A stretch of 64,000 bases of DNA from the human T2T-CHM13v2.0 reference genome, Homo sapiens, in the NCBI RefSeq assembly GCF_009914755.1, contig NC_060927.1, one strand, 5' to 3'. The position numbers were made by a program, and so were the translations under genes. Position 1 is the first letter of the stretch; every line of letters begins with the position of its first letter. The notes beneath the pieces are model-generated. The model saw nothing but the letters and a program-made list of their open reading frames with translations, did no database searches and was not told where the DNA came from. Of this stretch, positions 42,696-46,000 are shown in pieces.

Positions 42696-43044
42696 AATTT
42701 TTGTGTTTTTAGTGGAGACGGGGTTTCACCATGTTGGCCAGGCTGGTCTCAAGTTCCTGACCTCAAGGTAACCTCCCACCTCGGCCTCCCAAAGTGCTGG
42801 GATTGCAGGTGTGAGCCACCGTGCCCGGCCTAGATCAATTTCTTATGTAGCTAGATTCTCCAAGACCACCAGTTCCATTCTCCCTGTGAATCTTAATGGT
42901 GACTTGATGAATATGAATTTATCGGTTGATTTAGGGACCAGTGACTTTTGAGGATGTGGCTGTGCTTTTCATTGAGGCAGAGTGGAAGAGACTGAGCCTT
43001 GAGCAGAGGAACCTATACAAAGAAGTGATGCTGGAAAATCTCAG
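42696..43044 (+). pseudogene. Partial genomic duplicate of the ZNF589 KRAB-A exon with upstream intron and acceptor
   Basis: Collinear, gap-free copy of 52349-52697 (offset 9,653); exon part 42935-43044 reads [36 protein letters not shown]. Confidence 0.92.
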
Positions 43045-46000
43045 CACGCAACTGTAGTTCCAGCTACTCGGGAGGCTGAGACAGGAGAATCACTTGAACC
43101 TGGGAGGCGGAGGTTGCAGTGAGCTGAGATCACACCACTGCACTCTAGCCTGGGTGACAGAGCAAGACTCCATCTCAAAAAAAAAAAAAATTAGCTGGGC
43201 GTGGCGATGCGTACCTGTAATCCCAGCTACTTGGGAGGCTGAGGCAGGAGAATCACTTGAACCTGGGAGGCAGAGGTTGCAGTGAGCTGAGATTGCACCA
43301 ATGTACTCCAGCCTGGGCAACAGAGTGAAACTCCATCTCAAAAAAAAAAAGAAACTGTTTAATTTAAAATCACCTTTAAGTTGCGGTGATTTTTAGTTTT
43401 TTTTTGGTGTGGTATGAGATAGGGATTGGCGTTCTTTATTTTTAAATTTGGGCGTTCAGTTCTTCCAACACTGTTTTTTTGAAAAGACTTTCCTTCCTTC
43501 ATTGAATTCCTTTGATACTTTTGTTAAAAATCAATTGTGGGGCCAGGCACAGTGGCTCATACCTGTAATCCTAGCACTCTGGGAGGTCAAGGCAGGTGGA
43601 TCGCTTGAGCCCAGGAGTTCGAGACCAGCCTGGGCAACGTGGCGAAACCTCATCTTTACGAAAAGTACAAAAAAATTAGCTGGAGTTACTCACCTGTAGT
43701 CCCAGCTATGTGGGAGGCTGAGGTAGGAGGATCTCTTGAGCCTGGGAGGTTGAGGCTGCAGTGAGCCATGTTCACACCACTGCACTCCAGCCTGGGTGAT
43801 GGAGTGAGACCCTCTCTCAAAAAAAAAGAAAAATCAATTGTGGGTCTGTTTTCTCGGTGCTCTGTTCTGCTCCATTGAACTCTTCTCACATTTGTATTGT
43901 GCTCCTCACTAATGTAGTAGCTTTATGGTGAGTCTTAAAATCAGGTAGTGTAAGTCCTTAAATTTTATTATTATTATTATTTTTTTTTTGAGACAGATTC
44001 TCGCTCTGTCTCCCAGGCTAAAGTGCAGTGGCATAATCTTGGCTCACTGCAACCTCCACCTCCTGGGTTCAAGCGATTCTCCTGCCTCAGCCTCCCTAGT
44101 AGCTGGAACTACAGGCACAGGCTGCCATGCACGGCTAATTTTTTGTATTTTTAGTAGAGATGGGGTTTCACCGTGTTAGCCAGGATGGTCTCGATCTCCT
44201 GACCTTGTGATCCACCCGCCTCGGCCTCCCAAAGTGCTGGGATTACAGGCATGAGCCACCATGCCCAGCTGTCTTTTGCATTTTTATATAAATATTGAAA
44301 TCTATCAATTTGAAATTGAAAGTCTTATCAATTTGTACAATGGGATTTTGATTGAATTGCTTTGAATTTTTATATTAGTTTGGGGGAGAATAATATCTTT
44401 TTTTTTTTTTTTTTTTTTTTGAAACGGAGTCTCGCTGTCGCCCAGGCTGGAGTGCAGTGGCAGGATCTCGGCTCACTGCAGGCTCCGCCCCCTGGGGTTC
44501 ACGCCATTCTCTTGCCTCAGCCTCCCAAGTAGCTGGGACTACAGGCCACTGCCACCTTGCCCGGCTAATTTTTTATATTTTTAGTGGAGACGGGGTTTCA
44601 CCATGTTATCCAGGATGGTCTCAATCTCCTGACCTCGTGATCCACACGCCTCCCAGAGTGCTGGGATTACAGGCGTGAGCCACTGCGCCCAGCCATGAGA
44701 ATAATATCTTAACATTATTGAGTTTTCTGGTCCATCAGCGCAGTATCTCTCCATTTATTTAGACAATTTTTTCCTCATTTATGTAGATCTTTATCTTAAT
44801 AATCTGGGCGTTTTTTATTTTTATTTTTTGAGACAGAAGATCCCTCTGTTTCCCAGGCTGGAGTGCAGTGGTGCAATCTCAGCTCACTGCAGCCTCTACT
44901 TCCTAGGTTCAAGTGATTCTCTTGCCTCAGCCTCCTGAGTAGCTGGGATTACAGGCGTGCACCACTACACATAGCTATTTTTTGTATTTTTAGTAGATGG
45001 GCTTTTGCCACGTTGGCCAGGCTGGTCCCAAATTTCTGACCTCAAGTGATCCACCTGCCTTGGCTTCCCAAAGTGCTTGGACTACAGGTGTGGGCCACCA
45101 TGCCGGGCCATCACCGTTAGTATTAATGAACCAATAATAATGGTGGTTATTAACTAAAGTCCAACTTTATTCAGATTTCTTTAGTTTTAATGACCATTTT
45201 CTGTCCCAAAATCCCATCCAGGTTATCATGTTACACTTAGTTGTCACGTCTCCAAGGTAGTACTAGTCATATTTTTCTTTTTTTTTTTTTTTTTGAGACG
45301 GAGTCTCGCTCTGTCGCCCAGGCTGGAGTGCAGTGGCACCATCTCGGCTCGCTGCAAGCTCTGCCTCCCGGGTCCACGCCATTCTCCTGTCTCAGCCTCC
45401 CGAGTAGCTGGGACTACAGGCGGCTGCCACCACGCTAGGCTAATTTTTTTTTGTATTTTTAGTAGAGACGGGGTTTCACCGTGTTAGCCAGGATGGTCTC
45501 GATCTCCTGACCTCGTGATCCACCCACCTCGGCCTCCCAAAGTGCTGGGATTACAGGCGTGAGCCACCGTGCCCGGCGCTAGTCAGATATTTTGTAGATT
45601 GTCCCTTACTTGGGATTTGTTTGATGTTTTCCTCAAGTGAGAGGATTGCTTGAGCCCAGGAGTTCAAGACTAGTCTGAGCAACACAGCAAGAACCCATCT
45701 CTATAAAAAATTAAGAAATTTGCTGGGATTGGTGGCATGTACCTGTATCCTAGCTACTTGGGAGGCTGCCGTGGGAGGATCACTTGAGCTCAGGAGTTTA
45801 AGGCTACATTGAGCTATTATTATGCCACTGTACTCCAGCCTGGGTGACAGAGCGAGACCTTATCTCTTAAAAAACAAACAAAACAAGCTGGGCGTGGTGG
45901 CTCATGCCTGTAATCCCAGCTACTTGGGAGGCTGAGGCAGGAGAATTGCTTGAACCCAGGAAGTGGAGGTTGCGGTGAGCTGAGATTGTGCCATTGCACT

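What the first reader, a model, noticed from the sequence alone, without database searches (positions are those of the whole stretch)
42696..43350. Decoy KRAB-A exon: duplicated exon with intact acceptor could produce a KRAB-only ZNF589 isoform
Seen: 42696-43044 is a gap-free copy of 52349-52697 (antisense Alu left arm + ~105 bp intron + first 110 of 127 exon nt). The acceptor GAATATGAATTTATCGGTTGATTTAG is identical and lies 9,653 bp upstream of the true one, so it is transcribed first. Only two exon changes are visible (silent TTC>TTT; ACT>ATT, T>I). The donor is lost: the copy fuses to two headless Alu right arms and reads ..[10 protein letters not shown] (TAG 43055-43057). Splicing from exon 2 (phase 0) gives a 72-aa protein with nearly the whole KRAB-A box and no fingers. 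Known: KRAB-A binds TRIM28/KAP1, and KRAB-only isoforms exist for other genes. Inference: a dominant-negative/adaptor microprotein or a poison exon tuning ZNF589. Because intron sequence was copied and no TSD is evident, a DNA-level templated insertion with deletion of the Alu left arms is likely.
Basis: partly seen in the sequence, partly recalled or inferred. Interest (0 to 1): 0.8.

Follow-up and report, generated by a model that had tools for sequence, protein, structure and literature searches.

The report
Mosaic partial copy of ZNF589 exon
A 349-base patch in intron 2 of ZNF589 really does copy the splice acceptor and most of the KRAB-A exon, but it was stitched from two nearby templates and lacks the signals needed to finish an exon, so it is most likely a silent relic.

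Summary
Bases 42696-43044 align without gaps to 52349-52697, with 334 of 349 identical. The acceptor is identical and there are two exon changes. An in-frame TAG lies at 43055 and the hypothetical product is 72 aa. In the T2T genome the non-Alu part has only this one extra copy.

New: the patch is a mosaic. Its first 72 nt match another intron-2 Alu (47118-47189, 2 mismatches) far better than the exon-3 Alu (8 mismatches). The rest follows the exon-3 locus, with 7 mismatches in 277. It replaced the single left arm of an older Alu with a tandem right arm. There is no target-site duplication. This fits a DNA-level repair event that used several templates.

- By a rough matrix the acceptor is the weakest of six annotated ones, and 273 of 878 intron-2 AGs score higher.
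- No comparable donor lies nearby.
- The first AATAAA is 5.8 kb downstream.

Occasional use as a poison exon remains possible. No RNA data could be consulted.

The parts
42696..42767 (+). Patch segment A. It is the linker-proximal half of an antisense Alu left arm and is best matched by the Alu at 47118-47189.
   Evidence: 2 of 72 mismatches to 47118-47189, against 8 of 72 to 52349-52420. The next best of 62 window Alu left arms also has 8 mismatches. Only the 47118 element shares A at 42751 together with G at 42753.
42755..42767 (+). Crossover zone between the two templates. The stretch is identical in the patch, the 47118 Alu and the exon-3 Alu.
   Evidence: Three-way alignment. The informative sites switch from 47118-type (last at 42753) to exon-3-type (first at 42769).
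42768..42830 (+). Patch segment B1. It is the distal half of the antisense Alu left arm, copied from 52421-52483.
   Evidence: 2 of 63 mismatches to the exon-3 Alu, against 13 of 63 to the 47118 Alu. There are 8 substitutions shared with the exon-3 Alu against the majority of 61 other Alus.
42831..42934 (+). Patch segment B2. It is a copy of the last 104 nt of intron 2, including the acceptor AG at 42933-42934.
   Evidence: 3 of 104 mismatches, none within 52 nt of the AG. The rough acceptor score of 2.19 is identical to that of true exon 3.
42935..43044 (+). Patch segment B3. It is a copy of the first 110 of 127 nt of the KRAB-A exon (true exon 52588-52714).
   Evidence: 2 of 110 mismatches. 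Pfam KRAB 63.7 bits, profile positions 1-36 of 42. At 42972 all 6 of 6 paralogous KRAB-A exons carry C like the true exon, so T is derived in the copy.
43055..43057 (+). In-frame TAG inside the first Alu right arm.
   Evidence: Translation.
43045..43172 (+). Resident sense Alu right arm 1, which begins about 15 nt into the right arm, plus a run of 13 A.
   Evidence: Alignment to a full Alu. It is 9.3% from the window right-arm majority (4.3% outside CpG), so it is older than the patch. The best other match in the window is 89.9%.
43173..43350 (+). Resident sense Alu right arm 2, which starts in the linker, plus a run of 11 A.
   Evidence: The same order, left arm then right arm, A-run and right arm, is seen at 3 of 3 fetched genome loci.
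43116..43124 (+). Best cryptic donor within 300 nt, GCA|GTGAGC, with intron start at 43119. It would make a 184-nt exon that contains the stop.
   Evidence: Rough score 4.52, against 7.55-12.14 for 6 annotated donors.
43022..43030 (+). Weak cryptic donor inside the exon copy, GAA|GTGATG, with intron start at 43025. It would make an in-frame 90-nt exon without a stop.
   Evidence: Rough score 3.45. 90 nt encode 30 codons with no stop. By the ungapped register, the same 9-mer lies in the true exon at 52675-52683.
47118..47189 (+). Template A, part of the antisense Alu at 46958-47257 in intron 2.
52421..52697 (+). Template B: the end of the antisense Alu, the last 104 nt of intron 2 and the first 110 nt of true exon 3.
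   Evidence: 7 of 277 mismatches to the patch.

Best explanation
The feature is a fixed molecular fossil of one DNA-level repair or replication accident.

Origin. An older sense Alu that carried a tandem second right arm broke in or near its left arm. The upstream end primed synthesis on the linker of an antisense Alu 4.4 kb downstream (47118) and copied about 60-72 nt. It then slipped, through 13 identical bases, onto the homologous antisense Alu in front of exon 3 and copied on through 104 nt of intron and 110 nt of the KRAB-A exon. It was finally rejoined to the other broken end about 15 nt inside the first right arm. About 150 nt of Alu left arm were lost and 349 nt were gained.

Age. The 2.5% divergence from the sources suggests roughly 8-20 million years.

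Consequence. The result is an exon fragment with an acceptor but no donor and no poly(A) signal. Its acceptor is intrinsically weak and, in the true exon, must rely on the downstream donor (exon definition). The spliceosome therefore most likely ignores the copy nearly always. Rare use would give stop-containing or unspliceable RNA that is degraded.

Status of the steps. Shown here: the anatomy, the mosaic, the missing signals and the older age of the flanking right arms. Inferred: the order of steps, the date and the silence in RNA.
For: Copy and uniqueness:
- 334 of 349 bases identical, ungapped.
- Only 2 of 40 scored genome matches reach 98% or more, the patch itself and true exon 3.

Mosaic:
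- Left 72 nt: 2 mismatches to 47118-47189, against 8 to the exon-3 Alu.
- Remaining 277 nt: 7 mismatches to the exon-3 locus.
- The informative sites run AAAAAA OOOOOO A OOOOOO.
- The 8/72 against 7/277 heterogeneity gives Fisher p = 0.004.

Not a retrocopy:
- Intron sequence is included, there is no tail of its own and no target-site duplication. The neighbouring Alu's 15-nt duplication was found as a control.
- The flanks have no homology near the sources.
- Right arms 1 and 2 are each 9.3% from the window majority, and their best other matches are 90-91%. They are therefore older residents and not co-inserted.
- 3 of 3 fetched loci with the same right-arm pair have one left arm upstream.

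Weak exon signals (rough matrices with recalled frequencies):
- Acceptor 2.19, against 6.41-14.23 for 5 other annotated acceptors. 273 of 878 intron-2 AGs score higher, 73 of them upstream of the copy.
- Best donor within 300 nt 4.52, against 7.55-12.14 for 6 annotated donors.
- First AATAAA or ATTAAA at 48783, 5,848 nt downstream.

No sign of constraint:
- 2 changes in 110 exon nt, one of them non-synonymous and derived (6 of 6 paralogs carry the other base), against 3 in 104 intron nt.

Annotation and literature:
- The hub's RefSeq table lists one transcript, without this exon.
- The ZNF589 literature searched does not mention it in the listings or the passages I read.
Against: - No RNA-seq, long-read, 3'-end or proteomic data were available, so silence in RNA is inferred, not shown.
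- The splice scores come from crude position matrices with frequencies recalled from memory. They are calibrated only on 6 donors and 6 acceptors in this window.
- The copy keeps the exon body, and therefore its splicing enhancers, plus an identical acceptor and branch region.
- It lies 9.65 kb upstream of the true acceptor, which favours some use.
- The donor at 43119 pairs with U1 over +1 to +5 and could work.
- The single-event model cannot be told from a simple copy followed by Alu-Alu gene conversion. 2 of 72 mismatches has a confidence interval of 0.3-9.7%.
- The ancestral empty site is unknown, so microhomology at the two outer junctions cannot be measured.
Confidence: 0.55

Rival explanations
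1. Poison or decoy exon with a real regulatory effect. The copied acceptor is used at a measurable rate. It is either paired with the cryptic donor at 43119, giving a 184-nt exon with a stop that triggers nonsense-mediated decay, or it engages splicing factors unproductively and delays removal of intron 2. Either way ZNF589 output falls.
For: - The acceptor and the 52 nt upstream are identical to those of a constitutive exon.
- The exon body is 98% retained.
- The copy lies upstream of the true acceptor.
- There is an in-frame stop.
- With the 43119 donor the stop lies 61 nt before the exon end, and further junctions follow downstream.
Against: - The acceptor is weak and depends on exon definition.
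- The best donor scores 4.52, against at least 7.55 for annotated ones.
- There is no sign of sequence constraint.
- No such transcript is in the RefSeq table supplied.
- Nothing was found in the ZNF589 papers searched.
Confidence: 0.25
2. KRAB-only microprotein. Exon 2 splices to 42935, the RNA ends in the intron, and a 72-aa protein with most of KRAB-A binds TRIM28/KAP1 without DNA binding.
For: - The open frame gives 72 aa.
- Pfam KRAB 63.7 bits.
- By alignment, all 12 residues that PMC9753469 (passages read) lists as required are present: ZNF93 numbering D8, V9, I11, F13, E17, W18, L21, Y29, V32, M33, E35, N36.
- Finger-less KRAB isoforms are annotated for other genes, such as ZNF470 and ZNF302 (bioRxiv 10.1101/2024.11.28.625692, passages read).
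Against: - There is no AATAAA or ATTAAA for 5,848 nt. Only weak variants occur up to 45000, the end of that scan.
- The pure A-runs would give internal-priming artefacts in 3'-end sequencing.
- The C-terminal helix is cut short. Core aliphatic positions 40 and 43 (PMC9753469) are Gln and absent respectively.
- A Thr>Ile change sits next to a contact residue.
- ZNF589 is not mentioned in the isoform survey's main text.
Confidence: 0.05
3. Origin variant: a plain one-template copy of 52349-52697, whose left 60-72 nt were later overwritten by short-tract gene conversion from the Alu at 47118.
For: - The same mosaic pattern would result.
- One substitution (G at 42714) is shared by all three Alus.
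- Gene conversion between nearby Alus is established knowledge (recalled).
Against: - It needs two events.
- The left segment's divergence from its donor (2 of 72) is no lower than that of the rest from its source (7 of 277), although the numbers are small.
Confidence: 0.25
4. Origin variant: an RNA-mediated chimera. L1 reverse transcriptase started on an Alu RNA (right arm 1 and its A-run), jumped to nascent ZNF589 pre-mRNA at exon position 110, copied back into the intron and jumped again between the two Alus.
For: - The order is host fragment followed by a 3' Alu part and an A-run, all in the same orientation.
- Both Alu templates lie in the same pre-mRNA.
Against: - There is no target-site duplication.
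- Right arm 1 is 9.3% diverged, with most CpGs decayed, so it is older than the roughly 2.5% patch.
- The right-arm pair is a recurrent resident structure with a left arm at 3 of 3 other loci.
Confidence: 0.08
5. Origin variant: serial events. A 9,653-bp tandem duplication (43045-52697) was followed by an Alu/Alu deletion between the 47118 Alu and the exon-3 Alu in the first copy, and then by a further deletion of about 4.4 kb.
For: - The exon-110 to right-arm-1 junction is what such a duplication junction would look like.
- The chimeric Alu has the polarity of a deletion product.
Against: Three independent events would have to be fixed without leaving any other trace, so it is less parsimonious than one complex event. 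This is inference.
Confidence: 0.07

Closest known systems
Alu/Alu-mediated rearrangement with a chimeric Alu, and replicative template switching (MMBIR/FoSTeS-type templated insertion). Cited from PMC6071635, of which I saw only the search listing and the start of the abstract; the mechanism names are recalled.
   Same: - A chimeric Alu whose crossover lies in a short identical stretch.
- Templates in cis within 10 kb and in the same orientation.
- No target-site duplication.
- Outer junctions in Alu sequence.
   Different: - Here the product is a small fixed insertion-with-deletion (349 nt in, about 150 nt out) built from two templates, not a large copy-number change.
- It happens to carry a coding-exon fragment with its acceptor.
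Pseudoexons and poison exons in introns
   Same: An AG acceptor with a branch region, an exon-like body and an in-frame stop.
   Different: - It did not arise from an Alu or from random intron sequence; it is a copy of the gene's own next exon.
- It lacks a competent donor by the rough score.
- No inclusion data are available.
Tandem exon duplication that gives mutually exclusive exons
   Same: A duplicate of an exon within the same gene, upstream of the original, in phase.
   Different: The copy is truncated at 110 of 127 nt and has lost its donor, so it cannot substitute for exon 3.
Finger-less KRAB-only isoforms of KRAB zinc-finger genes, such as ZNF470 and ZNF302 (bioRxiv 10.1101/2024.11.28.625692, passages read)
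   Same: The hypothetical product would be a KRAB box without fingers.
   Different: - Those isoforms are annotated and expressed, and they carry whole KRAB boxes.
- This one is hypothetical, lacks the end of KRAB-A and all of KRAB-B, and has no poly(A) signal.

Membership tests
KRAB box (Pfam PF01352) | Profile match above the curated cut-off | tested here: met
   63.7 bits against a cut-off of 20.4, profile positions 1-36 of 42. The true exon gives 78.6 bits over positions 1-41.
KRAB box (Pfam PF01352) | The 12 residues required for KAP1 binding and silencing (PMC9753469, passages read) | tested here: met
   By register (Pfam position + 2 = ZNF93 number) the residues D, V, V, F, E, W, L, Y, V, M, E, N are all present in the translation. 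ZNF93 Ile11 is Val here, which is also aliphatic. Binding itself was not tested.
KRAB box (Pfam PF01352) | [quoted passage not shown] | tested here: not met
   The copy ends at exon nt 110. Position 40 is Gln and position 43 does not exist (PMC9753469).
Spliced internal exon (cassette or poison exon) | A usable 3' splice site | tested here: inconclusive
   It is identical to that of constitutive exon 3, but it scores 2.19 against 6.41-14.23 for the others. 273 of 878 intron-2 AGs score higher (rough matrix).
Spliced internal exon (cassette or poison exon) | A 5' splice site within exon-definition range | tested here: not met
   The true donor is not copied. The best candidates are 4.52 (43119) and 3.45 (43025), against 7.55-12.14 for annotated donors (rough matrix).
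Spliced internal exon (cassette or poison exon) | Junction reads in RNA | not testable with these tools
   No transcriptome data are held. The supplied RefSeq table has one transcript, without this exon.
Alternative terminal exon (intronic polyadenylation) | A poly(A) signal hexamer shortly downstream of the stop | tested here: not met
   The first AATAAA is at 48783, 5,848 nt from the acceptor. Only weak variants occur up to 45000, the end of that scan.
L1-mediated retrocopy | No introns, its own poly(A) tail and flanking target-site duplications | tested here: not met
   104 nt of intron were copied. The A-run belongs to the older right arm. No duplication was found, while the neighbouring Alu's 15-nt duplication was.
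Alu/Alu-mediated or template-switch insertion | A chimeric Alu with its crossover in shared identity, and templates nearby in cis | tested here: met
   The crossover lies within 42755-42767. The templates are at 47118 and 52421, in the same strand and the same intron.
Alu/Alu-mediated or template-switch insertion | Microhomology at the non-Alu junctions and an empty ancestral site | not testable with these tools
   This needs outgroup primate genomes, and none are held.
Tandem exon duplication (mutually exclusive exons) | Both splice sites and the full exon retained | tested here: not met
   Only 110 of 127 nt are retained and the donor is lost.

The most novel reading that the evidence does not exclude
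An ape-specific repair accident gave ZNF589 a second, earlier KRAB-A acceptor that is used under some conditions, such as slow elongation or a particular tissue. It then acts either as an autoregulatory poison exon or as the source of a 72-aa KRAB-A peptide. The peptide keeps all 12 KAP1-contact residues and would titrate TRIM28 away from DNA-bound KRAB zinc-finger proteins. One A-to-T change in either pure A-run would create a canonical poly(A) signal, so the terminal-exon form could also exist as a human polymorphism.
Probability: 0.06. Interest if true: 0.6.

Novelty: new member of a known kind. Interest (0 to 1): 0.3.

Why it matters
As it stands, this is a clean, datable example of a fixed germline insertion built from two nearby templates, with a chimeric Alu at the switch point. 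That footprint is usually seen in disease copy-number variants rather than as a small neutral patch inside a gene.

It also shows how such accidents can seed exon-like sequence (acceptor, enhancers, open frame) in an intron, one or two mutations away from a new exon or a new 3' end. If RNA data showed real use, it would be a lineage-specific brake on a KRAB zinc-finger gene that the papers read link to stem-cell biology and virus silencing. Without such data it is ordinary.

Tried and rejected
- One paper search was badly constrained and returned general splicing papers without ZNF589.
- ZNF589/SZF1 literature:
  - 123 papers hold ZNF589, 24 hold SZF1 with KRAB and 34 hold ZNF589 with splicing.
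  - Passages read in four papers mention only C-terminal isoforms of 361 and 421 aa (PMC4236113, citing Liu 1999, which I did not see), a change in finger number (PMC2678155) and poly(A) sites outside intron 2 (PMC10094766).
  - In PMC8007004 the words isoform, splice and truncated have no occurrence.
  - Supplements were not opened.
- The search for a target-site duplication around 42696-43172 and 42696-43350 found only an off-register 8-mer.
- The search for homology of the patch's unique flanks near either template found none.
- The search for same-age sources of the two right arms found best window matches of 89.9% and 90.8%, and a best genome match for the pair of 88% among 40 scored of 2,554 candidates.
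- Reverse direction, with the copy as the ancestral exon disrupted by Alus, was rejected. The sequence after the second A-run matches the exon's continuation at only 6 of the first 7 bases and then not at all.
- Simple tandem duplication was rejected because neither flank is shared.
- Complex prediction and structure prediction were not used.
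Full report
**1. Observation**

The two stretches were read directly and compared base by base.
- 42696-43044 and 52349-52697 align without gaps, with 334 of 349 bases identical.
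- Similarity ends sharply on both sides.
- The 15 mismatches fall as 10 in the 135-nt antisense Alu part, 3 in the 104-nt intron part and 2 in the 110-nt exon part.
- The closest mismatch to the acceptor is 52 nt upstream, so the AG, the pyrimidine tract and the probable branch region are the same as for true exon 3.
- The exon changes are 42949 C>T (silent) and 42972 C>T (Thr>Ile).
- At the second site, 6 of 6 paralogous KRAB-A exons from elsewhere in the genome carry C, so T is derived in the copy. At the first site the paralogs are split: 2 carry C, 3 carry T and 1 carries A.
- Translation from 42935 runs 40 residues to TAG 43055-43057.
- Exons 1 and 2 hold 96 coding nt, so the phase is 0 and the hypothetical protein has 72 residues.
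- A search of the whole T2T genome with the 214-nt non-Alu part gave 40 scored matches. Only two reach 98% or more, the patch itself and true exon 3. The third is 80%, on contig 20.

**2.

The mismatches are unevenly spread. There are 8 in the first 72 nt and 7 in the remaining 277 (Fisher p = 0.004).

I polarised the Alu part against 61 other Alu left arms in the window.
- The first 70 nt hold 1 substitution shared by the copy and the exon-3 Alu, against 8 differences.
- The last 65 nt hold 8 shared substitutions against 2 differences.

I then asked which Alu in the window best matches the left part.
- The answer was not the exon-3 Alu. It was the antisense Alu at 47118-47189, which also lies in intron 2, with 2 of 72 mismatches.
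- The exon-3 Alu has 8 mismatches, the next best of 62 elements also has 8, and the median is 12.
- Only the 47118 element shares the copy's A at 42751 together with G at 42753.

In the three-way alignment the informative sites run as follows: six of 47118-type, then twelve of exon-3-type. The one exception lies among the twelve, at 42799, and is explained by a private change in the exon-3 Alu. The switch lies inside 42755-42767, which is identical in all three elements.

The patch is therefore 47118-47189 joined, within Alu homology, to about 52421-52697.

**3. The landing site**

Downstream of the patch lie a sense Alu right arm that starts about 15 nt into the arm (43045-43172, with 13 A) and a second right arm that starts in the linker (43173-43350, with 11 A).
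- Both are 9.3% from the majority of 60 right arms in the window (4.3% and 2.2% outside CpG positions). Their best other matches in the window are 89.9% and 90.8%.
- They are therefore older than the patch, which is about 2.5% from its sources, and were not copied in the same event.
- A genome search with the pair found many full-length matches of 80-88% (40 scored of 2,554 candidates).
- The three best were fetched. All 3 of 3 show a left arm, linker, right arm, A-run and second right arm.

So the resident element was most likely an Alu with a tandem right arm. Only its single left arm, plus about 15 nt, was replaced.

No target-site duplication flanks the patch, with or without the right arms. 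The best shared word is an off-register 8-mer. The same search recovered the 15-nt duplication of the neighbouring Alu at 43541-43828. The unique flanks of the patch have no counterpart near either template.

**4. How it arose (inferred)**

The following points argue for DNA-level synthesis that changed template at least once, not for retrotransposition of an mRNA:
- intron sequence was copied;
- the patch has no tail and no target-site duplication;
- both templates lie in cis, within 10 kb and in the same orientation;
- the chimeric Alu has its crossover in shared identity;
- about 150 nt were lost at the landing site.

This is the pattern described for Alu/Alu-mediated rearrangements and replicative template switching (PMC6071635, listing and start of the abstract only; mechanism names recalled).

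Three variants remain open:
- A plain copy later converted by the 47118 Alu cannot be excluded. 2 of 72 mismatches has a confidence interval of 0.3-9.7%, against 1.0-5.1% for 7 of 277.
- A reverse-transcriptase chimera is disfavoured by the age of right arm 1 and by the missing duplication.
- A serial route, tandem duplication followed by two deletions, needs three events.

On age: a divergence of 2.5% between paralogs corresponds, with recalled primate divergences, to roughly 8-20 million years. The copy is therefore predicted in great apes. This could not be tested because no primate genomes are held.

An indirect check against a second human assembly is available. A table row in PMC10094766 gives GRCh38 ZNF589 from 48241099 to a 3'-UTR poly(A) site at 48270986. 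That span is within about 8 nt of the T2T RefSeq span (32885-62764), so no 349-nt difference exists between the two assemblies.

**5. Can it work as an exon?**

I scored splice sites with simple position matrices. Their frequencies are recalled, so only ranks within this window should be trusted.

| Signal | The copy | Annotated sites in the window |
|---|---|---|
| Acceptor | 2.19 (same as true exon 3) | 6.41-14.23 (5 other acceptors) |
| Best donor within 300 nt | 4.52 (GCA\|GTGAGC, 43119) | 7.55-12.14 (6 donors) |
| Weaker donor inside the exon copy | 3.45 (GAA\|GTGATG, 43025) | 7.55-12.14 (6 donors) |
| First AATAAA or ATTAAA | 48783, 5,848 nt downstream | not applicable |

- 273 of 878 AG dinucleotides in intron 2 score higher than the copied acceptor, 73 of them upstream of the copy.
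- A weak acceptor of this kind is normally recognised through the downstream donor (exon definition, established knowledge). The copy has lost that donor.
- The 43119 donor would give a 184-nt exon that contains the stop.
- The 43025 donor would give an in-frame 90-nt exon without a stop.
- Only weak hexamer variants lie between the acceptor and 45000.
- The pure A-runs would mimic poly(A) sites in oligo-dT-based data.

The short terminal exon needed for a stable KRAB-only message is thus not supported. Poison-exon use through 43119 is possible but not favoured. The commonest fate is probably skipping.

There is no sign of constraint on the copy. It has 2 changes in 110 exon nt, of which the Thr>Ile change is derived in the copy and the polarity of the silent one is unresolved, against 3 in 104 intron nt for both lineages together.

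**6. The hypothetical protein**

- Pfam KRAB matches at 63.7 bits over profile positions 1-36 of 42. The true exon gives 78.6 bits over positions 1-41.
- I used the register given in PMC9753469 (passages read), in which the ZNF93 number equals the profile position plus 2. On that register, all 12 residues reported as required for silencing are present.
- The long C-terminal helix is cut. The aliphatic core positions 40 and 43 are Gln and missing.
- The paper states that KRAB-A is sufficient for KAP1 binding. Whether this truncated form binds is unknown.
- KRAB-only, finger-less isoforms are annotated for other genes (bioRxiv 10.1101/2024.11.28.625692, passages read). ZNF589 does not occur in that main text.

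**7. Literature**

- ZNF589 occurs in 123 held papers, SZF1 with KRAB in 24 and ZNF589 with splicing in 34.
- From the listings and the passages read in four papers, the described isoforms differ at the C-terminus or in finger number. None mentions a duplicated exon in intron 2.
- Supplements were not opened, and GENCODE or Ensembl models could not be consulted. I do not claim that no transcript model uses this acceptor.

**8. Verdict**

The finding is a real and rather elegant structural relic. It is a two-template patch with a chimeric Alu that copied the acceptor and 87% of the KRAB-A exon into the preceding intron. It is a new example of known kinds: template-switch insertion and pseudo-exon.

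The functional claims rest on an open frame alone and run against the local splice and poly(A) context. Interest is modest unless RNA data show use.

Noticed in passing
window 52568-52588 and 52712-52720: The acceptor of the constitutive KRAB-A exon 3 of ZNF589 is very purine-rich. Its rough score is 2.19, with 53% pyrimidines, the weakest of six annotated acceptors in the window. Its donor, at 7.55, is the weakest of six annotated donors. The exon must lean on exonic enhancers and exon definition.
   Followed up: partly
L009:347-794, L010:350-807, L011:353-806 (genome loci): At these loci an Alu has a second right arm joined behind the A-run of the first (left arm, right arm, right arm). This looks like a recurrent structure. 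The genome search returned many full-length matches of 80-88% to the right-arm pair.
   Followed up: partly
window 43526-43540 and 43829-43843: A perfect 15-nt target-site duplication flanks the sense Alu at 43541-43828. It served as the positive control for the duplication search.
   Followed up: yes
window 42692-42695 and 43351-43357: The four bases before the patch equal the first four bases after the second A-run, which may be a remnant of the resident Alu's target-site duplication. Separately, the seven bases after that A-run match the exon's own continuation at 6 of 7 positions. Either could be chance.
   Followed up: no
L003 (contig 20, about 2523114-2523261, minus strand): The closest paralogous KRAB-A exon (80-82%) also shares about 40 nt of upstream intron and the donor region with ZNF589 exon 3. 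This suggests a comparatively recent common origin of the two genes. The gene name was not verified.
   Followed up: no
window 52373-52395: The exon-3 Alu carries four private substitutions within 23 nt (52373, 52375, 52386, 52395) against the majority of other Alus. This cluster first made the copy look unevenly diverged.
   Followed up: partly
window 43160-43172 and 43340-43350: Two pure A-runs, of 13 and 11 bases, sit just downstream of the in-frame stop. A single A-to-T change in either would create a canonical poly(A) hexamer.
   Followed up: no
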